The notes beneath the pieces are model-generated. The model worked only from the letters and a program-made list of their open reading frames with translations. It had not been told where the DNA came from and ran no database searches. A program made the position numbers and the translations under genes. This document shows, one piece after another, positions 63 through 51,074 of a stretch of 64,000 bases of DNA. Each line of letters opens with the position of its first letter. Position 1 is the stretch's first letter. The DNA is from the human T2T-CHM13v2.0 reference genome, Homo sapiens. Location of the stretch: NCBI RefSeq assembly GCF_009914755.1, contig NC_060925.1, one strand, 5' to 3'.

Positions 63-233
63 ATTGCAGTTTTGCCCCTAGTTTTGCCCATGGGCATCCT
101 AAACAAGTTAATTTATGCAACTGTTTCAAAAATGAGGCTGTATATAAATGTGATGAAGGCTACACTGTGATCGGACAGGTGAAACTCACCTGCATTTCTT
201 CCTGCTGGTCATCTCCAGCCCCTCAATGTAAAA
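63..233 (+). pseudogene. C4BPA-like unit 1: CCP7-like Sushi exon (open frame, acceptor AG apparently mutated to AA)
   Basis: Translates as CSFAPSFAHGHPKQ...VYKCDEGYTVIGQVKLTCISSCWSSPAPQCK, with 4 canonical Cys and Trp. It matches C4BPA CCP7 (CNFPPKIAHGHYKQ...[30 protein letters not shown], recalled). Phase-1 donor gtaact at 234. The 5' boundary aligns with the caag acceptor of unit 2 but reads catcaa. Confidence 0.9.
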
Positions 234-424
234 GTAACTCCAGCTCCCTTTTCAGTCCATGACTACGTGGGTGGAACTGTCATTAGAGCACTGAGAGCAA
301 AGTTTCTCCTCTGCTAGAGGCAGCACAAAAACATTCTATTTGATTTATTTTAAATAATTAATATATGGAGATGATACCCAATGCAAAAACTACAAAGGAC
401 ATCCAGCACCTATATTTCATTTAG

Positions 425-681
425 GAGTCCCTGAGCAAGCACTCCCAGGCAGAAAACTCATGCAGTGTCTCCCAAACCCAGACAATGTGAAAATGGCGCT
501 GGAGGTGTATAAGCTGTCTCCAGAGATTGACCTACTGGAACTAGAGATACAAGGGAAGATGATCCACTCTGGAAAAATAACTATAATTTTTCCCAAAAGA
601 GGGAAAAAAAGATGCCTTGTGGCCTTGTTGCTTTCATTCAATATGGATCACTTCTGTTTTGCATCTCTACCATACCTTTAG
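425..681 (+). pseudogene. C4BPA-like unit 1: terminal oligomerisation-domain exon
   Basis: Acceptor tttcatttag ends at 424. EQALPGRKLMQCLPNPDNVKMALEVYKLSPEIDLLEL matches the C4BPA tail EQVLTGKRLMQCLPNPEDVKMALEVYKLSLEIEQLEL. The ancestral end (tccactctggaaaaataactataa) is visible out of frame near 563-586. Belongs to the C4BPAP pseudogene family; the exact symbol cannot be assigned from this window. Confidence 0.9.
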
Positions 682-22640: not shown

Positions 22641-22719
22641 ACCCAACTGTGTTCATTTACTCCCAAGTGGCCCAGTCAGCAGACTCACAGGTAGTCATTT
22701 TGGCCAATGAGTGAAAATT

Positions 22720-23283: not shown

Positions 23284-24586
23284 AAACTACTTTACTGTGT
23301 TCCTCTTTCTAAAGGAAGAAACCACTTAGTGGATTTGTTTTCTTTTCTCTCTAGAAAGTTGAGATTTAACTGTGCTTTCATCAATATTCCAAAGACGTTT
23401 GCTCAGTTATATTTGGTAGTTCTATTTATTTTTGAGAGATAAGCATTTTGGCTATTATTGGTATGTAGTAGTCATTCCAACTTAACTGGGTAATGAAGAC
23501 CACTTTGGGACAAATTCCAGAATTTACTCTCTTGTTCGAACAGCAATCTTTGTCTCTTACAGGAACAGAAACCCACGGCTGGTGGGCAAAAGATACAACT
23601 CAGATTGGTGGTTTTGTCTGTCTCACTTTAAGAGACTAAATTTAGGAAATGGTCTGGGTGAATAGCTAGGTAGTTGCAGATAGCTAAGAGAAATTTTGTC
23701 CTGTGGTTATCTTCCCGTGAAGAATAACAAATGTGCCTTTCAAAAACATATCTTTTGTTGCTTACAGGCAAAATGCTGGGTTTCACTCTGAACAAGCACC
23801 ATTGAGATATTCTGTAAGTCACAATAAATCTTCCTTTCTTCCTAATTTATCATCCTCAAGCATTTAAATTTCAGGGCAAGCTTTTTCTGTGCTGCAAGCA
23901 CAAACTAGAATAGTTTTCAGAGTAAGATAGTATCACAGAGTGAATCATTTGGTACATCAGAAATTCCAGGAAGTAGGAAAACGAAGTTCCCACTTACATA
24001 TATTTCTTGTAAGAGTAATTATTGTTTGAACTAGATTCTTATTTTTAAAAGTAGAGACTTGTTTTACTCATTCTGGCTGGACTGTTTAGAAAAGTTTAAC
24101 TTTGCAAACTTTAAAAAAAAATGTTCATTCTTCTATGGGCAGTTTATCTGCCTCGGTGAGGATATTGCTTCCTGGACAGGAACTGCTTCTCAGCCTGGTC
24201 TTTCATGCTGCGACCTCTCCTTCCTGGAGACCCACCACTTACCCTGTGTGACAGGAGCTGCAGTCCTTTTGCCTTTTGCTCTTGTTCCCTCAGAGAAGAA
24301 TTATGCATATACCCACAAAGGGACTCATCACTGGCTCCGCCTGAACAGTGATAAAGTCTCAGGGAGATACATACAGAATCTCAGAGGGTGCCCCAGACTC
24401 TTCTCCCCAAGAAAGGGCCATATCAGCTCCCCTCTGTCAGAACTGTGCTCAGCATCTGGTCTACCAGTCACACTCCTTGCCCCTCCCTTTCAGTGACCCA
24501 TTGTTGGGACTTTGCCAAGGCTGAACTCCTTGGCATAGGCATATTTCAATGGTTACTTAGAGAACTTTTCTTCCTCTTGATTCAAG

Positions 24587-24684
24587 GTATCGCAGAAGGC
24601 GGAGCCCCATTGTGTCCCCTCTGAGACTCTGCCATGTCCCTCAAGTTGCAGAGCATTTTCCCAGCACTAGGCTGGGAAATATAG
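24587..24684 (+). pseudogene. Unit 2: ApoR-like signal-peptide exon remnant
   Basis: Pyrimidine tract and acceptor ttcaag end at 24586. gccATG at 24634 gives MSLKLQSIFPALGWEI*. The first 12 residues resemble the pig apolipoprotein R N-terminus MPPNLQRIFPAL (recalled). The hydrophobic core is missing. Confidence 0.6.
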
Positions 24685-25677
24685 TCAAATGGTGGTAGTT
24701 CACAAGATTTTCGAGAGAATAAAGTGACTATGTTATTAATAAAAATGAAGAATCTTAAAATGTCAAGGAAATTGTTCTAATTTAGATAGAAGCTGTTATT
24801 AGGTCTAAAACAACAAAGTGATCATATGCAAAAATCTTTGCAGAGCTGCTTTAGAAAGGAATAACCTTTAATTTTTAAATCAATTTCTTATATTTAAATA
24901 AACATTCCTAAATGCTTAAGATACAATTATTTTCCAATTAAGTTAGTTATACCATCTACAATCTCAGTTACTAATTGATCAGAAAAAATTTCCATCCTCA
25001 AAGCACAATATACTGCCTGCTATCACAAATTCTGAGTGAATTTGCTGAAGTAAAATTTAAGCACTTTGTAAACTATAAAGCCTTATACAAATGTAATAAG
25101 GCAGAAATTTAAATAATAATAATGATAATAAGTACTGCATTTATTTACTTTAAAAAAAGTAAAAGCTAAGGCCCAAAATGTGGCAAGGCAAGGGTTAAAA
25201 AAAAGTTTTCCTTTGTCTAGCAGCTTATTTTAAGGATAGTTATAAGATAATCCTGTCTGAATAGCCAAGGCCAAAGGAATGGGTTCCAAACACCCCTCCA
25301 TTTTAGAGCAAGGTTAAAGGAAAAAAAAAAAAAAGACAAATGCTTTTACTGTTACTCTTTTCCCAGGCTTCTTGAGCATTATGTTTCACAAATGTCTATA
25401 TTTAGCCAGTTTTTATTTTTCTTTCGATGCAGCTACAAGGTCACCAGCTATGCAAGATCGCAAATTATGTTATGTTATAAATTAAGTGACCTGTCACTGT
25501 ATAATTAACTGCTTTTGTTTTGCTTTGGTAAGGCCGCTTATAAAAATGCCGCTCTATTTTTATTCAATGCACAGCTTTTTGGATATAAATCCTCTGAGCC
25601 GGTGCATACCTAAAAATAAACAAATCCTCCTGTACTCCTTATTGGTCTCTCCGTTCCTCAGTTTACCACAATGTTTA

Positions 25678-26080: not shown

Positions 26081-26397
26081 CTAGGAATCTGGAGGTGGCG
26101 AGAGTGGCTCACCACCCCAACTAGGAATCTAGAGGTGGCGAGAGTGGCTCACCACCCCAACTAGGAATCTGGAGGTGGCGAGAGTGGCTCACCACCCCAA
26201 CTAGGAATCTGGAGGTGGCGAGAGTGGCTCACCACCCCAACTAGGAATCTGGAGGTGGCGAGAGTGGCTCACCACCCCAACTAGGAATCTGGAGGTGGCG
26301 AGAGTGGCTCACCACCCCAACTAGGAATCTGGAGGTGGCGAGAGTGGCTCACCACCCCAACTAGGAATCTGGAGGTGGCGAGAGTGGCTCACCACCT
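26081..26397 (+). repeat. 40-bp minisatellite (VNTR), about 8 copies
   Basis: Unit ctaggaatctggaggtggcgagagtggctcaccaccccaa at exact 40-bp period. One substitution in copy 2; the last copy is degenerate at its end. Confidence 0.97.
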
Positions 26398-30830: not shown

Positions 30831-31080
30831 TATTTAACCTCATGATTACTGAATATGATTCTGTTTTGGAGTAACTCCCTGTGGCTAAATTAATGCTTTT
30901 GTACCCAGAAGTTCATGAACAGTGTAAAAGTTTACTGATTTTGTCAAGGAGACGAAATGTACATCAGCAGTACAATAAGTTAATGACCTAGTTCTGCATA
31001 ACGAGAAGGGTCGCTCACTGAATTGTTCATTAAATGAAACTCTAGCTCATTCTCCTCTACCTTCTCTCTCACCATTCAAG

Positions 31081-31252
31081 TTTGCAGAATGGTTCCTCCC
31101 ATTGGCCATGGGTCCTATGAAGATGTGAGATCATTTTTTATTCTCTACTACTCTGGTGCACTGTCACTGTGATGATGGATATGTTCTAATTGGAGAGGCT
31201 GAAGTCACCTGCAGAAATTCACATTGGTCAGCTCCAGCCCCTCAATGTAAAG
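31081..31252 (+). pseudogene. C4BPAP2: Unit 2: CCP7-like exon (frameshifted)
   Basis: Acceptor caag at 31080. Reads CRMVPPIGHGSYEDV...(frameshift)...HCDDGYVLIGEAEVTCRNSHWSAPAPQCK, with GT at 31253. Length 172 nt breaks the frame. The symbol is tentative. Confidence 0.85.
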
Positions 31253-31748
31253 GTTAACTCCAAACTTACTGAGGGCCCTTGCTAAGAAGGTAGAGCCTCT
31301 ATGAAAGGTCAAACAAGAGTCTCCTCCTAGACAGAGGCAGCACTTAGAAATTTACACTTTACTTATTTATTTAATTTGCATAATTAATATATACACATGG
31401 TACAATATTTTAATAGCATGAATGATCACAGTTTATCACTCTTGAACACTACTGTTATCAATGTATCTTTCAGAGGTCATCTGGAAGGCCACTTTTTGCT
31501 TGAATAAAAGTTTTGATTTAAATATAACATACTACAACACTGTGTCCAAATCTTAGGTGTACAGGTCAATAAATTATCACAAAGTGAACCCACCATGACA
31601 AACTACCACTCAAGTCAAGAAGCATCACCACTACCAGCATCCCAGAAGTGTTCCGTGTGCCCTCTCCTAGTGACTCCCCAACTTTCCTTCCCAATTAGTC
31701 TCACCTCTAGCATCACAGATTAGTTTTATCAACTTTTTAGCATTATAT

Positions 31749-31794
31749 TTAGATTGGTGCAAAAGTCACTGCGGTTTTTGCCATTACTTTGAAT
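31749..31794. mobile_element. Half MADE1 (Hsmar1-derived mariner MITE)
   Basis: ttagattggtgcaaaagtcactgcggtttttgccattacttt approximates the MADE1 TIR TTAGGTTGGTGCAAAAGTAATTGCGGTTTTTGCCATTACTTT. The second arm is absent. Confidence 0.8.
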
Positions 31795-32105
31795 ATAAAG
31801 GAAATCATGTATGTATTCTTTTGTGCCTGCCTTCTTTACTCAGTATTATGTTTTTGAAAATCATCTATGTGTTCTTGCATGGGGTGATAGCTTATTCATT
31901 TTCATTGTTGTATAATCTTTGGATAAACATAACACATTTTATGTATCTTATAAAAGTTTAGGATTTTCATGTTATAGGCTATTATGAACAATGCTCTTAT
32001 GAACATTCTTGCACATGACTCTTGATACAAATGTGCAAATATTTATGTTGGGAATAAACTTAAAAGTGGAATTGCTATTTCATAGAGTATGCATCTATTC
32101 ATCTC

Positions 32106-32418
32106 TTTTTTTTTTTTTTTTTTTTTTTGAGACAAGTTCTCATTTTGTCACCCAGGCTGAAGTGTAGTGGCATGATTATAGCTCACTGTAACCTCCAACT
32201 CCTGGGTTCAAGGGATCTTCCTGCCTCAGCCTCCTGAGTAGCTGGGACTACAGGCATACACCACCATACCTGGCTAATTTTTAAAAAGTGTTTTGTAGAG
32301 ATAGGGCCTTTCTTTGTTGCCCAGGCTGGTCTTGAACTCCTGGGCTCAAGTGATCCTCCTTTACCTGCCTTGTCCTCCCAAAGTGTGGGATTACAGCTGT
32401 GAGCCACCACACCCAGCC
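32106..32418 (-). mobile_element. AluJ
   Basis: Antisense Alu with AluJ features (gatcatagctcactg-like, ctcctgggctcaag). TSD-like tattcatct on both flanks. Confidence 0.9.
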
Positions 32419-33595
32419 ATATATTCATCTTTAGTAGATAATGCCAAATTTTGTTCAACGGTGATTGCAACAATTTAAATTTCCACAAGCAGTGTATGAG
32501 TGTTCTAATTTTGATAAATAGAAGTTCTAAATTCTAATTTAGTTCTATTTATAATTTTTTTCCTTGATGTTGGCACCTTTCATATCCTGTTTAAGAAATA
32601 TTTGCCTACAGCAAGGTCACAAAAAATATTTCCTTATGTTATTTTCCAGAGCTTTATTGTTTTAACTTTTCACATTAGTATCTCCAAATCACTTGGAATT
32701 CCTGTGTGTTTATGGTGGAAAGTAGTGGTTAAAATTTGTTTTTCTCCAACGGCTGTTCAATTAATCATATAGCACTTATTTAATAAACTATACTTTCCAC
32801 ACAACTCTGCAGTGTGACCTTTGTTATAATTCAAGTGTCTGTATATACAGGGTTCTGTTAGTGGACTTAGAGATACAATTTTTAATTTGAGAGTATCAGT
32901 GAGGATTTGGCAAAATTTTAGTGGGCATCTACTTAAGTTTAAATGAGGAATCCTGTGGGTAAATTCCCAACATCTTTGAAGTATTCGATGTCTCCATTAG
33001 AAACCATGCATGCTCCCACCTTCTCATAATGAAGTTGACCTGATAGGAGATTTTTGGTCAACCACAAGGATAGGGTCAACCTTTTTTTTTTTTTTTAACT
33101 AATCTATTAATAGCAACTCAAGGAGCTAATTCCCCACACTGTCTCCATTTAACACAGCAAGATATTAAGAATATGAGAATAAAAATTATATACTTAGGAC
33201 CATGAAAAGATCAAGGTTTGGAAATACTGTACTAATTTTGAAAACTCTGACTCTAGGACCGCAGTGACTAGGTTTACATCATAATCATGCCACCCAAAGG
33301 CTATGCAATATTAGACAAGTCACACAAACTATCTGTACCTAATTTTTCTCTTTAGCAAAATGGAGGTAATAATGTTTTGCATTAGTACTTACATTGACAT
33401 ATAGTATGTGCAATAACATTATTAGCATTATTATTAATCTTATTGTTATAATCATAAATAAATGGAGGTAAAGAACAACTCTCAGCATCCCATCCAGGTA
33501 TAATTTATCAATGTTTCATAACTCTCAATATTCTTACTATTATAAGATCTTATTCTGAGAATCATAGGATGATCAAAATTGTGTTTCCATTATAG

Positions 33596-33797
33596 CTCTG
33601 TGTCTGAAACCAGAGACAGAAAATGGAAAGCTGTCTGGGTAAGGATCTGTATGTTGAACTTGAAAATGTCACCATCCAGTGTGACTCTGGCTATAAAGTG
33701 GTTGGTCCTCAAAATATCACTTTGGTTGGTCCTCAAAATATCACTTGATCAGAGCACAGAACATGGCAGGCACCCAGAGGTGCCCAGTTGTGAGTGG
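33596..33797 (+). pseudogene. C4BPAP2: Unit 2: CCP8-like exon (disrupted)
   Basis: tatag acceptor and gtaagt donor. Reads ALCLKPETENGKLS...KDLYVELENVTIQCDSGYKVVGPQNIT...RTW...PEVPSCEW, matching C4BPA CCP8. Carries frameshifts, a 24-bp duplication and Cys to TGA at 33746. Confidence 0.88.
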
Positions 33798-34368
33798 GTA
33801 AGTGGCACACATTTCAGGGCATCCTATCCCATTCTAAAAATGATAGTCTCCTCCAGAGCACTGTCCTAGCCAACACCAGCGAGATCTGACTTTTGGCAAG
33901 ATTTATTTCGGGCACATCACTTACAGAATTAGCACCGTCACCTTTGAAGCACTTTGGTGTACTTGTTAAGGTAAGCTCAAGAAGGACCACACCCCTAGAT
34001 AGGAAGGTCTCATAGATCCAGCTGACTTGACCCCCAGCCTCATACTTTCTATAATAAATGCTATGCTTTTGCTTCATTTCAGATGGGCCCATCAGAATTG
34101 TCCCTTCTGTCGCCCCTAACGAGGCCCCCTGGGTGTTGTCTGCAGCGTTGTTCCTTCCCTGCTTCACCAGCTACTGATTGCTGCCTGACGGCCGAGGGAG
34201 AATACTTTGCTGAGACCCTAGTTTCTTTGGGATTTTATTCATCTGTCCTGAGGAGGGTTTTGACATTCCGGTTTTGTGGTCATCAGTGATACATCCAGAA
34301 GAAATCTTACATATTCGGATTTCATTTGGAGAGAAGCCTCTCAAAAACTATCGCTTTATTTCATTTAG

Positions 34369-34530
34369 GTAATCTCTGAAGGTTGTGAGCAAGTGCTCAC
34401 GGGTAGAAAGCTCATGCAGTGTCTCCCACACCCAGAGGATTCGAAAATGACCCTGGAGGTGTAAAAGCTGTCTCTGGAGATTAAACGACTGGAACACGTG
34501 TGAGACTTGAAGACGAACAATGCCAGTTAG
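34369..34530 (+). pseudogene. C4BPAP2: Unit 2: oligomerisation-domain exon (premature stop)
   Basis: tcatttag acceptor. Reads VISEGCEQVLTGRKLMQCLPHPEDSKMTLEV*KLSLEIKRLEHV*, with Tyr to TAA at 34462. Both interchain Cys are retained. Confidence 0.9.
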
Positions 34531-45306: not shown

Positions 45307-46316
45307 TACAGACAGGCCTGACAAAATTACTCAGACAATATTTGAGTGGGACATTCCTTGTGGTTTTTCCTGATTTACCTAAGTCACCTAATAAGTCACA
45401 CTTGGTGCCATTCTGATCTGTTGAAAGAGGGAAGTGTGGTGCCTGAAGCACTGAAAAGCATGCGGGAGAAGGTGATAACAAGGCTCAGGTAATGAGGCTC
45501 AGGCACCTATTATCTGTAAAGTTTTGGCCAAATGTCACCTACACTTTTCTGGAAAGGTGATTTTAAAAAACCATAGGCTGTCATAAGACTAAATGTGATC
45601 ATTTATGGAAAGTGCTTAGAACATAGAGGTGCCTAATAGGTAAAAGAGTCATCTAACGAACGCTCTAAATTCCTTGTTTTTTCTAACTAATATTCAGTTA
45701 TTGTCTTAGAGTCTCTTCTAAAGTTAAGTCAATTCATGACGAACTTATGTGCTTTCCTTCTTTTTAGGGAGGTTAAAATTTAATCATGCTGTAATAAATG
45801 TTACATCATAATTTACCGAGTTACTTTTGGTAAATGAGAACTAAGTGCTTTGGATTTTGAACTCCTGTAACAGTCTTTGCAGCTGAACTAGGTAGGCAGG
45901 TCATTTTCAGGCCTTTCCCAAAACTCATCTTCTTGTAGTAAAAATCAGCATATTTATTATTATTATATTATTATTCAAGTATTATTTCCCATGAAATATA
46001 ATTATGTACATAAACAGCTTATCTTTTACTGCCTTTTTTCAGAGACATAACACCAGGCTGAGTGTGGCTTTTGGCTGATTGAAAACCATGCAAGCATTCT
46101 TCAGGTCTGATGGAATCTTGCTGTCTGTGTATGTTCCCACTTGCAGCCACATGCTCCTGCATGCTTTTCAGTGCTTCAGGCACCACATTTCCCTCTTTTA
46201 ACAGACCAGAATGGCACCAAAGTGTGACTCATTAGGTGACTTAGGTAAATCAGGAAAAACAAAAAGGAATGTCCCACTCAAATATTGTCTGAGTAATTTT
46301 GTCAGGCCTGTCTGTA
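45307..46316. repeat. Inverted repeat with ~162-bp arms (45307-45468 and 46154-46316)
   Basis: tacagacaggcctgacaaaattactcagacaatatttgagtgggacattcc... is the reverse complement of ...ggaatgtcccactcaaatattgtctgagtaattttgtcaggcctgtctgta, with few mismatches. Confidence 0.95.
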
Positions 46317-46997: not shown

Positions 46998-47113
46998 GTG
47001 GAATCTGTGACCTTCGGGCTTCTGTCAGTGCAGGTCAACATGTACCATGAGGCCTGCGTCAGGGAGCAAACCACCCTCCCATCCCTGTATCTCATGCCTA
47101 TCCAGCCTACACC
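46998..47113 (+). pseudogene. Unit 3: candidate degenerate signal-peptide exon
   Basis: The acceptor region resembles that upstream of 24587. ATG 47040 gives MYHEACVREQTTLPSLYLM, compared with QRIFPALCLL of ApoR and QSIFPAL of unit 2. Donor-like gtgagc at 47114. Confidence 0.35.
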
Positions 47114-47778
47114 GTGAGCCAGGCATTCCTAGTGCACAGGGCCCCAGGAAAGCCTGGGTAAAGTGCACAATCAATGAAAGGAAGGTAGTTTACATCAATC
47201 AATTGCAAAGATATTTATTCCATGTTAGGAATTTTATAAGTATGGTCAAATTGTAGTAATTTACACCAATTTGTGGGAGGCATAATAAATTATTTTATTA
47301 ATGTTGTTTATTAACAAATTAATTATTTTATTAATGGTATAATAAATTGTTTATTAACTTCCATTTTATTTAAGGAATGTTTAACTACAATTTTTTTAAG
47401 TTTTAATACTTTTAAGTATATGCTAATACCATTACTAGGGGATTAAAAAAACTTGGTTTGTGTATATTCCTGGGGATCTACCCTAGTAAACAGATAAAGA
47501 TGAAGTGCAGGCAGCTTCGCTTCCTTACATATAAATATAAATACAAAAGTGCTTAAAATTCCTTTACCTCTTAAATGAGTTCATTATCACCTGCTGTATT
47601 TTTGTTTAACAATTGGCTGTCACATTTTACCATCCAGAAAGCAAAAGTGAAATTTTTATTGTTGTCACAAATTCTGAGAAAACGAACTAGAACCTACATT
47701 TATAAGGTATGTGTAAAAGTTCTCTGTAAACCATAAAACATTATATAAATACAAGGTTTTATTTTTGCAGTTTGGTAA

Positions 47779-48120
<342 letters not shown>

Positions 48121-48324
48121 AATTGTTTTCTATAAATGCAAAACACAGGGTATTGTTGAGGTTGGTACGTAGGGAAGTGCTTGCAGATTCTGAGTTTGTG
48201 CAGTTCTTGCAAGTTTTCACAGGGCAATGTCTCTTTATCACAAAACACTTCTCAAATAACTTCAGTTAAAAAAAAGTCTCCTCTGCTGCTGACTTTATGT
48301 CTAAAGGTCCTTCATTGCCCTCAA

Positions 48325-48865
<541 letters not shown>

Positions 48866-49201
48866 TTACATTTTTAAAATATTTTAAATTATTGAAAGAA
48901 ATAGTTCTATAGAAGGTGAGAAGTCAATTCTGCTTCCTCCAAATACTTATACACATACCCACTTTCCTTAATTCTTAGCCACATGGTAATGTGAGGGAAG
49001 GCATCCCCTTTGTGAATTATGTCATGTTATTTTATTGGCAATGGCATTGATTGGGAAGCATAAAAGTCTTCCAATAAATCCCTTTAGTTCTGTGCTGCTT
49101 TCTTTAATGAATCAGAAGAAAACACCCTCTTTCTCTCTCCCTCCCTCTCCGTCTCTTCCTCCCCTTCTCCCCTCTGCCCTCTGTCTCTCTCACTATCCAA
49201 G

Positions 49202-49367
49202 TTTGCAATTCGCTTCCCCGGATTACACACTGACACTATGAAAATATTAGTGAATTCCTCACTCAGCACTCTAATGCAGTGTGAATGCAAGCAAGGATAT
49301 GCTCTGACTGGAGCAGCTAACATCTGCAGGTTTGCAGGTTGTTCATCTCTAGCTTCTCAACGCAACG
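49202..49367 (+). pseudogene. Unit 3: highly degenerate CCP7-like exon
   Basis: Long pyrimidine tract and ccaag acceptor like unit 2. Reads CNSLPRITH*HYENI...ECKQGYALTGAANICRFAGCSSLASQRN. Trp, the last Cys and the donor are lost. Confidence 0.7.
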
Positions 49368-49759
49368 GGAATCCAAACTCCCCAGCCAAAATAGTGCTGA
49401 GCAGCTAACCACTACAGAGTGGCTCAGAAGTGACTTGGAGGGAAGTGTTCCTCCCAGCCAGAGGCAGTTGCCATGGGTCAGTGCTTGAGTCTGAGTGAGG
49501 TGGGTCATGGTTCAATTTCAAATATCCAAGAAATAGCACCATTACTCCCCAGTTTATATGTAGTCCAAAACCTTTCGTGAGATAGTTGACCTATGGGGTT
49601 GACCCCACTGTTGGTCAAATGACTGTTATGACAGAATAAGCAAAATATTTCTTAAAAGGTTATTTACATTATTTTACCCAGAACAATTCCAGGAGCTAAG
49701 TCATCATCACTGCTTTTATTTTACACAGGGGAAAACCGAGGCAAGAAGAGAAGTCCTGT

Positions 49760-49990
49760 TGCATAGAAAGAGAGAGCTCAGAAACTGGAATTAGATGCCC
49801 TGGGTTCACATCTTGGCTCTGCGTCTTAAAAGGTGCTGTGTGATTCAGCTTCTCCATCCCTCAGCTTCCTTATCTCTACAGCAAATATGCTCCTACAGGG
49901 TTGCTGAAGGCTTACATGAAATAATGCATGTAATACGCTTGACACGTAGGCTGACATCTAGCAAGTGTTCAGTAAATATCAGCTAGTAAA
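49760..49990 (+). mobile_element. MIR SINE
   Basis: cctgggttcacatcttggctctg...cagggttgctgaaggcttacatgaaataatgcatgtaa. Confidence 0.65.
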
Positions 49991-50181
49991 TAACAGCTAC
50001 CACTCAGCTAGTGGTAATGCTGGTTGACGTGATGGGGTGGTGATAGCAGTGGTATCAAGAGTAGCGGAGAAAGAAAAGACAAAATTCAGCAAGATTTCTT
50101 ATCCCTTTTATTAATTATCAGTGTCCAAATGTGTTTTTTCTGAGGTTCATAAGATGCTAAGGTAATGTGTTTTGACTACAG

Positions 50182-50356
50182 CTCTGTACCTAAAACCAGA
50201 AATATTAAATGCAAAGCTGTCTGTGGAGAAGAATTGGTATACCAGTCTTGAAACTGTCACCACCAATATGACCCTGGCTATTGGATGTTTGGCTCCCAGA
50301 GTGTCTTTTGCTCAGAGAACAAATCTTGGAGTCTGGATGTGTACAAGTGCAAGAGG
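50182..50356 (+). pseudogene. Unit 3: degenerate CCP8-like exon
   Basis: tacag acceptor. Reads ALYLKPEILNAKLSVEKNWYTSLETVT...YDPGY...GSQSVFCSENKSWSLDVYKCKR, versus C4BPA ALCRKPELVNGRLSVDKDQY...CSGNRTWYPEVPKCEW. Frameshift present; donor GT changed to AT. Confidence 0.8.
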
Positions 50357-50918
50357 ATAAATAATATGCATTCAATGAATTTTATATATGATACCTCAAA
50401 ATAAATGATAGGAAAATGGGATGGTTCATAAAATGGGAAAAGTAGTAATATCTCCTAAAGGATGGTCTCAGTTGTTGCGGTTAATTTATAAGGTGTTTAC
50501 AGGTACTGGTTCTTTCTACCCTGAAGCATTGTGATAAATCCGTGGTGGTAGCAAAGTTTATTGCATTTGTTTTACAGGAAGTCAGCAGAGTCTTATTAAA
50601 CAGTTGCCCTGGCCCTGGGCCTCAGTATTTCTCTATTATTTGATGTGGTTTTCTGGTGAATTAGTAGAACTGGATCCCCCTGCAGCTTAAGCCTCCTCTT
50701 TGCTTGTACTGATTCTGATTATTGCCTAAGAACAGATATAGATTCAACTCTCAGGGAAATATTTTGCTAGGATCCAAAGTATTTTTCTGGAGTTTCCTGC
50801 CCATGCATCCTGGGGTCATTCCTTACCTTCTAATCCTCCTGTCACAAGCCTTCCTGAAAAGCTTTGATTTCCTCTTTCCATTCATTTCATTTCATTTCAT
50901 TTTGATTTCCTCTTTCAG

Positions 50919-51074
50919 AAAGTCTCTGAAGGCTGTGACATAGTCATGGCAGGCAAAACCCTCTTACACCGTCTCCCAGGTCACAGGGTCTCAATAGTGG
51001 CCCTACAGTTACATAAACTGTCTCTACAGATGGAAAAACTGAAGCAAGAGAGAGACAAGGAGAAAATCATTTAA
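50919..51074 (+). pseudogene. Unit 3: oligomerisation-domain exon, open 51-codon frame
   Basis: tttcag acceptor. Reads KVSEGCDIVMAGKTLLHRLPGHRVSIVALQLHKLSLQMEKLKQERDKEKII*. AATAAA at 51186. Confidence 0.82.

What the first reader, a model, noticed from the sequence alone, without database searches (positions are those of the whole stretch)
24587..24684. ApoR-type start exon 6.4 kb upstream of the C4BPAP2-like exons
Seen: an acceptor, a short 5'UTR, gccATG and MSLKLQSIFPAL, then abrupt divergence and a stop. This matches 7 of 12 residues of the recalled pig ApoR N-terminus. Inference: a deletion removed the hydrophobic core and the donor, which may be the inactivating event. It is too short for the ORF track and probably lies outside pseudogene annotations built from C4BPA.
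Basis: partly seen in the sequence, partly recalled or inferred. Interest (0 to 1): 0.7.

Follow-up and report, generated by a model that had tools for sequence, protein, structure and literature searches.

The report
Broken start exon of ApoR-like pseudogene
This stretch is the front half of the start exon of a dead human gene (its later exons are the annotated pseudogene C4BPAP2), cut short by a likely deletion of about 130 bases, and it is likely one of three neighbouring dead copies of a small secreted-protein family that lemurs, bats, pigs and other mammals still have.

Summary
Confirmed. ATG 24634 opens MSLKLQSIFPALGWEI*. Its first 12 residues score 37.4 bits on a profile of mammalian ApoR-like N-termini, against a maximum of 19.5 in shuffles of 164 kb. 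A sister human exon at window -4369 keeps the whole exon and its donor. Alignment to it breaks at 24668 and resumes at 24680: a net loss of about 127 nt, covering the hydrophobic core and the donor. Colinear intron matches tie the exon to C4BPAP2.

Three corrections. First, the dead gene most likely belongs to a paralogous ApoR-like type (type A, intact in lemurs, bats, carnivores, pig), not to pig ApoR itself. The three-domain tree does not exclude the other grouping. Second, five other disabling lesions exist, so the deletion cannot be called the first hit. Third, use of the acceptor is not shown.

The locus holds three tandem ApoR-type units: C4BPAP3 with the -4369 exon, C4BPAP2 with this exon, and an unannotated unit at 46998-51074. 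The third resembles the small chain of bovine C4BP. Overall this is an ordinary pseudogene exon, but it maps a lost gene family.

The parts
23291..24586 (+). Upstream sequence shared with the sister unit (possible promoter, non-coding exon or intron; role untested)
   Evidence: Aligns to -5738..-4417 at 62-73% by segment; the 23299-23510 block has one other match in the genome, the sister unit
24567..24586 (+). Pyrimidine tract and AG, acceptor-like; use not shown
   Evidence: Sequence; AG at a similar distance from the ATG in all three human copies
24587..24633 (+). 5' untranslated part of the start exon
   Evidence: 70% identical to the sister exon; in-frame reading matches N-terminal extensions of bat and bear models
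24634..24668 (+). Surviving 35 of 85 coding nt of the signal-peptide exon (MSLKLQSIFPA plus two bases of the Leu codon)
   Evidence: 37.4 bits against a null maximum of 19.5; 83% DNA identity to the sister exon, above its flanks
24668..24680 (+). Deletion junction: the rest of the exon, the donor and about 79 nt of intron are missing
   Evidence: blastn break 24668/-4335, resumption 24680/-4196; best resumption point -4207, 127 nt; three-way alignment agrees
24669..24684 (+). Former intron now read in frame (GWEI, then TAG)
   Evidence: 24669-25100 aligns to the sister intron, 0 of 300 shuffles as high
31081..31252 (+). First SCR (Sushi) exon of C4BPAP2, type-A sequence, one frameshift near 31140
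   Evidence: (PF00084, E 1.8e-5)
33596..33797 (+). Second SCR exon: two frameshifts, one stop, a 24-nt tandem duplication (33699-33746)
34369..34503 (+). C4BP oligomerisation-domain exon, in-frame stop near 34462
   Evidence: PF18453, E 1.1e-22
46998..47113 (+). Start exon of a third, unannotated ApoR-type unit (type C); ATG 47047, donor kept, 18 nt shorter than intact exons
   Evidence: begins MRPAS like treeshrew P0077; similarity of the exon alone to the A and B exons is weak (59 and 22 of 500 shuffles as high)
49202..51074 (+). SCR, SCR and oligomerisation exons of the third unit (49202-about 49367, 50182-about 50355, 50919-51074), broken
   Evidence: core PF18453, E 1.3e-11; first SCR piece not called Sushi; clade support 100/100
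65..583 (+). C4BPAP3 SCR and core exons: 3' part of the sister unit whose start exon lies at -4369, outside the window

Best explanation
The stretch is the 5' half of the ATG and signal-peptide exon of a dead ApoR-like gene whose later exons are C4BPAP2; a deletion of about 130 bases likely removed the rest of the exon and its splice donor, so any protein made from it would be a 16-residue stub without a hydrophobic core. How the gene worked (inferred from intact relatives): one exon encodes 28 codons plus one base of signal peptide and splices to SCR, SCR and C4BP oligomerisation exons, giving a secreted protein of about 190-200 residues that likely joins C4BP-type oligomers through the core domain. 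The gene is most likely the ortholog of the type-A ApoR-like gene kept in lemurs, bats, carnivores, horse, pig, whales and afrotheres. It arose by tandem duplication along with two neighbours and is now dead, with at least five further disabling lesions. Shown: sequence match, colinearity, gap against the human paralog, lesions. Inferred: the ancestral exon, orthology type, the function of the protein, an old date of loss.
For: Profile score 37.4 bits against a null maximum of 19.5. The profile for residues 13-29 finds only the sister exon (18.6 bits, null maximum 8.0) and nothing for this unit in 164 kb on either strand. The sister unit's missing exon block has no match in the window (score 30, shuffle mean 29). 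A colinear chain links the units at 22716, 23291-24668, 24680-25096, 27173, 27596, 31023 and 34354. The exon end at codon 28+1 is shown by the donor in the sister exon and by exon-skipping isoforms P0096, P0082, P0086, P0127. The best 11-residue hydropathy is 0.94 for the stub and 1.94-3.31 for 61 of 61 intact N-termini. First SCR exon: A 134.3, C 93.1, B 72.7 bits; leave-one-out was right for 26 of 27 A, 26 of 26 B and 10 of 11 C. The tree puts it among 27 type-A proteins (support 94/71). Sister placement with warthog ApoR or with human C4BPA is marginally rejected (p 0.044, 0.046).
Against: No orthologous mammalian DNA was on hand, so the deletion is read against a human paralog about 30-35% diverged; a looser alignment gave 58 nt, scoring 5231 against 6914 for 127 nt. 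The AU test does not reject grouping with the B/C4BPA/ZP3R side (p 0.437), and the A branch had support 16 in the reduced tree. The surviving 12 residues are closer to B-type N-termini (mean 8.8 of 12, n=18) than to A-type (7.5 of 12, n=26). The second SCR and core exons are 75% and 70% identical to human C4BPA, above their A means of 68% and 65%. In vesper bat models the same signal sequence heads both A and B bodies (P0013, P0048), so start exons can be exchanged or mis-joined. The group labels came from the tree.
Confidence: 0.87

Rival explanations
1. It is the start exon of the human ortholog of pig ApoR itself (type B), or a B-type exon copied into this unit by gene conversion.
For: The 12 residues are closer to B-type (8.8 vs 7.5 of 12); 83% DNA identity to the human B exon in the coding part; AU p 0.437 for the B side.
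Against: The first SCR exon is clearly type A (margin +61.6 bits; all 26 B rows negative). The flanks are only 62-70% identical to B, which argues against a recent conversion. A better B candidate exists at -4369: its second half is closer to B (8.7 vs 6.8 of 16), and it is followed by an SCR6-like exon as in bat isoforms P0086 and P0081.
Confidence: 0.08
2. The deletion was the event that killed the gene, and the other lesions came later.
For: It removes both the signal core and a donor, enough to be a null.
Against: Three frameshifts and two stops in the other exons are each disabling. One genome cannot order them. This rival is about timing and is compatible with the best explanation.
Confidence: 0.2
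3. The match is chance, or a stray fragment unconnected to C4BPAP2.
For: Only 12 codons survive.
Against: Profile and shuffle tests, UTR match, and a colinear chain from 22.7 kb to 34.5 kb.
Confidence: 0.02
4. The remnant is still used, as a 16-residue micropeptide ORF or as a regulatory part of the antisense lncRNA LOC107985251, whose predicted exon 24243-25632 covers it.
For: Kozak-like gccATG and a stop are present; the hub's table shows the antisense exon.
Against: The hub's table lists no plus-strand transcript here; the stub has no hydrophobic core; no expression data could be tested.
Confidence: 0.03

Closest known systems
Pig apolipoprotein R (warthog record P0075; Cooper and Attie 1992, seen only as cited in PMC2231380)
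   Same: Signal exon + 2 SCR + C4BP oligomerisation domain; 8 of 12 N-terminal residues
   Different: First SCR only 43% identical; falls on the B/C4BPA/ZP3R side of the tree; the human copy is dead
Type-A 'apolipoprotein R-like' predicted proteins (Microcebus P0022, Nycticebus P0031, bats, bear, pig P0024)
   Same: Same layout; first SCR shares the HGSxxDVxSFxxFxT motif, mean identity 60%
   Different: Those are intact predicted proteins; I found no function test for this type in the papers read; lemur proteins carry a 12-residue insert that the human copy lacks
C4BPAP2 (C4BPAL2), RefSeq pseudogene 31093-34497
   Same: Same gene: its three exons are the 3' part
   Different: The annotation omits this exon; bioRxiv 10.1101/2021.10.15.464600 calls it a pseudogenized duplication of C4BPA
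C4BPA and ZP3R/C4BPAP1
   Same: Last two SCR exons and core are homologous
   Different: Their signal exon is longer and only weakly similar to the ApoR-type exon (3 of 500 and 49 of 500 shuffles as high for the B exon, 216 of 500 for this remnant)
Bovine 'ApoR', the 23 kDa small chain of bovine C4BP (PMC13012041)
   Same: Family member with a shown role: one chain per 5-7 alpha chains in the C4BP complex
   Different: The paper's cloning primers read QGCSPPPE and QEKRKLEIA*, matching type-C ends (P0085, P0071), so it likely corresponds to the third human unit, not to this one

Membership tests
ApoR-type gene | N-terminal signal-peptide exon of the MxxKLQxxFPAL type | tested here: met
   37.4 bits against a null maximum of 19.5; first 12 residues only
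ApoR-type gene | Hydrophobic core and phase-1 donor after codon 28 | tested here: not met
   Absent in human; present in the sister exon and in 61 of 61 intact N-termini. This is the lesion.
ApoR-type gene | Two SCR exons downstream and no further SCR exon between | tested here: met
   Exons at 31081 and 33596; no other SCR match seen between 24.7 and 31 kb in the printed part (output was cut) or
ApoR-type gene | C4BP oligomerisation domain with two cysteines | tested here: met
   PF18453, E 1.1e-22; both Cys present
ApoR-type gene | Secreted protein on lipoproteins or in C4BP | not testable with these tools
   Known for pig and bovine proteins (PMC2231380, PMC13012041); the human copy cannot make it
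Ortholog of pig APOR proper (type B) | Groups with warthog ApoR in SCR sequence | tested here: not met
   SCR-1 profile A 134.3 vs B 72.7; sister placement p 0.044
Type-A ApoR-like ortholog | Type-A first SCR | tested here: met
Type-A ApoR-like ortholog | Well-supported clade over all three domains | tested here: inconclusive
   94/71; support 16 and AU p 0.437 for the alternative
Type-A ApoR-like ortholog | Synteny with the intact gene in another mammal | not testable with these tools
   No other mammalian genome is held (no relatives)
Unitary (lost) pseudogene | Disabling lesions and no other copy in the genome | tested here: met
   Six disabling lesions; 24560-24720 has one match in the genome at E 0.001, itself (the search missed the 68% paralog, so its reach is limited)
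Internal exon with a splice acceptor | Transcript spliced into 24587 | not testable with these tools
   AG present in all three copies; no transcript data

The most novel reading that the evidence does not exclude
Humans, and probably all monkeys and apes, lost a whole three-gene family of short C4BP-type chains: C4BPAP3 (the pig ApoR type), C4BPAP2 (type A, this exon) and an unannotated third gene inside LINC02942 that is the ortholog of the small chain of bovine C4BP. Each has a damaged signal exon. 'ApoR' in pig, cattle and bat proteomics would then name three different genes, each with its own human fossil.
Probability: 0.6. Interest if true: 0.55.

Novelty: new member of a known kind. Interest (0 to 1): 0.4.

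Why it matters
It extends C4BPAP2 by 6.5 kb and re-reads it as a lost ApoR-like gene, not a stray piece of C4BPA. A 2026 bat serum paper (PMC13216534) says APOR lacks a known human ortholog. Here there are three candidate human fossils, one unannotated. This would sort out which 'ApoR' is meant in livestock and bat proteomics. It also makes one question testable: did primates lose alternative small chains of C4BP, and when? The exon has no shown function in people today.

Tried and rejected
Search for the missing half of the exon elsewhere (inversion, insertion): none at protein level in 164 kb or at DNA level in the window. A 58-nt deletion: replaced by 127 nt, which scores higher and fits the third copy. 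Origin of the exon from C4BPA exon 2: suggestive only (3 of 500 shuffles, donor consensus included). An SCR6-like exon in this unit, as in the sister unit: not found. LINC02942 exon 1 as an ancestral first exon: not supported, since it lies in one arm of a local 169-bp inverted repeat. Intact monkey, ape or tarsier ApoR-type proteins: none among the named rows of 95 hits or the 120 listed of 187. The one simian row, Saguinus P0070, groups with human C4BPA (100/99). This is weak evidence: word-limited search, 67 rows unseen, some rows unnamed. The 1995 C4BPAL2 paper is not held, so I cannot say whether it already links C4BPAL2 to ApoR. No structure or complex prediction was run: the domains are known families and a pass would reflect likeness to solved C4BP cores.

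Full report
Observation. The window shows a pyrimidine tract and AG ending at 24586, 47 nt of leader, gccATG at 24634 and the ORF MSLKLQSIFPALGWEI* ending at 24684. Of the 104 proteins then held, 61 gave a 29-residue N-terminal block starting at Met; the rest were over 300 residues, partial or could not be anchored. A profile of the first 12 columns, scanned over 164 kb in six frames, gave two peaks: 41.3 bits at -4369 and 37.4 at 24634. The next site scored 12.9 and the best of 30 shuffles 19.5. Identity is 8 of 12 to warthog ApoR and at least 8 of 12 to 37 of 61 proteins. The leader also matches the longer N-termini of bat and bear models.

The lesion. In intact proteins the exon ends after 28 codons plus one base, as exon-skipping isoforms show. 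The profile for residues 13-29 finds only the sister exon at -4335. That sister exon, upstream of C4BPAP3 and outside the window, keeps the whole exon and a GTGAGT donor but is 2 nt short. Against it, blastn breaks at 24668/-4335 and resumes at 24680/-4196. A scan of resumption points peaks at -4207, a net loss of 127 nt: 48 coding and 79 intronic in the paralog. A three-way alignment with the third copy agrees. A looser alignment gave 58 nt but scores lower (5231 vs 6914). Both versions remove the hydrophobic core and the donor. The sequence after the junction is old intron: 24669-25100 aligns to the sister intron with 0 of 300 shuffles as high. The stub's best hydropathy window is 0.94, against 1.94-3.31 in 61 of 61 intact N-termini. 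The size is read against a paralog, not an ortholog.

Which gene. Matches between the two units run in order from 22716 through 24668, 25096, 27173, 27596 and 31023 to 34516. This ties the exon to C4BPAP2's SCR, SCR and oligomerisation exons. Those exons carry three frameshifts, two stops and a 24-nt duplication; I did not count a further frameshift call at the ragged 3' end. The deletion is therefore one of six disabling lesions and cannot be ranked first. So many lesions suggest an old loss (inference).

Which relative. A tree of 62 fetched proteins chosen from the 104 and five human sequences shows type C (100/100), a B/C4BPA/ZP3R group holding warthog ApoR (98/85) and type A (94/71, not starred), which holds C4BPAP2. 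On 35 rows the AU test marginally rejects sister placement with warthog ApoR (p 0.044) or human C4BPA (p 0.046) but not placement on the B side (p 0.437). The first SCR is the informative domain: A 134.3, C 93.1, B 72.7 bits, with leave-one-out right for 62 of 64 rows (labels came from the tree). Against this: the surviving 12 residues are closer to B-type N-termini (8.8 vs 7.5 of 12), and the last two exons are 75% and 70% identical to human C4BPA. Exchange between paralogs is likely here: C4BPAP3's SCR exon and flanks are 82% identical to C4BPA over 764 nt. Type A remains the best call. Lemur, loris and galago records have type-A proteins. No named monkey, ape or tarsier ApoR-type protein appeared among 95 hits or 120 of 187 listed, which is weak evidence of loss in that lineage. 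Wallaby and opossum records show that the family reaches marsupials.

The surroundings. The locus has three tandem units. Unit B: start exon -4369, an SCR6-like exon near -3534, then C4BPAP3. Unit A: this one. Unit C, absent from the hub's gene table: start exon 46998-47113 (18 nt short, donor kept) and exons at 49202, 50182 and 50919, inside LINC02942. It falls in type C next to treeshrew P0077. PMC13012041 (passages read) reports that bovine C4BP holds one 23 kDa 'ApoR' chain per 5-7 alpha chains. Its primers translate to type-C ends. That the purified chain is the primer gene's product is my inference.

How it worked. Inferred from relatives: the exon supplied the start codon and signal peptide for a secreted protein of about 190-200 residues, with two SCRs and a cysteine-bearing core that likely joins C4BP-type oligomers. 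Pig ApoR is described on VLDL and chylomicrons (PMC2231380, passages). No paper I read tests type A. Whether the exon was first or internal is open: all three copies have an AG 47-49 nt before the ATG, but the A and B AGs are one base apart in the ungapped alignment and a bear model reads across the site.

Prior knowledge. Searches: 'c4bpap2' 3 papers, 'c4bpal2' 3, 'c4bpap3' 1, 'linc02942' 1, 'apolipoprotein R' with C4BP 9, with pseudogene 5, with short consensus repeat 2, ApoR with C4BPA 5, and a five-term search with 78 papers, 40 listed, none of the 40 holding 'apolipoprotein r'. Most were seen as listings only. bioRxiv 10.1101/2021.10.15.464600 (first third and one passage) calls C4BPAP2 and C4BPAP3 pseudogenized duplications of C4BPA and does not contain 'apolipoprotein'. 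PMC13216534 (passages) says APOR lacks a known human ortholog. PMC5767332, PMC10086816 and PMC6659299 (passages) add nothing on this exon. The 1995 C4BPAL2 paper and the 1992 ApoR paper were not seen, and either may already link the two; no supplements were read. I found no mention of this exon or of unit C in these searches.

Verdict. The remnant is real and the deletion is well supported. The 'inactivating event' claim is unproven and the ortholog is probably not pig ApoR. Alone it is an ordinary pseudogene exon; as the key to three lost ApoR-type genes it has moderate interest (0.4).

Noticed in passing
L002:5584-5713 (window -4416..-4287): Whole ApoR-type start exon with donor, 2 nt short, 4.4 kb upstream of the annotated C4BPAP3; an SCR6-like exon follows near window -3534. 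It extends C4BPAP3 and makes it the best candidate for the pig ApoR type.
   Followed up: yes
window 46998-51074: Unannotated third ApoR-type pseudogene (four exons) inside LINC02942; type C, likely the ortholog of the bovine C4BP small chain.
   Followed up: partly
window -361..401 vs C4BPA -54069..-53306: 82% identity over 764 nt, far above the roughly 62% between the ApoR-type units; suggests gene conversion of C4BPAP3 by C4BPA. C4BPAP3 also lacks its second SCR exon.
   Followed up: partly
window 45307-45474 and 46148-46316: 169-bp inverted repeat, 94% identical, with no other match in the genome search; the left arm covers most of LINC02942 exon 1.
   Followed up: partly
window 23291-23520: Block 73% identical to the sister unit and also matched in the third unit, 1.1-1.3 kb upstream of the ATG, with an acceptor-like tract; possible promoter or non-coding exon.
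   Followed up: partly
window 26081-26396: 40-bp tandem repeat, 7.9 copies, 99% matches, in the intron after the exon.
   Followed up: no
proteins P0056, P0069 (Myotis brandtii), P0071, P0044: Gene models that mix parts: an SCR that looks CD55-like (recalled likeness) joined to a type-A body, and type-A first SCR joined to type-C later exons. Read-through, mis-modelling or real exon exchange.
   Followed up: no
window 24243-25632, minus strand: A predicted exon of lncRNA LOC107985251 covers the remnant in antisense (hub table).
   Followed up: no
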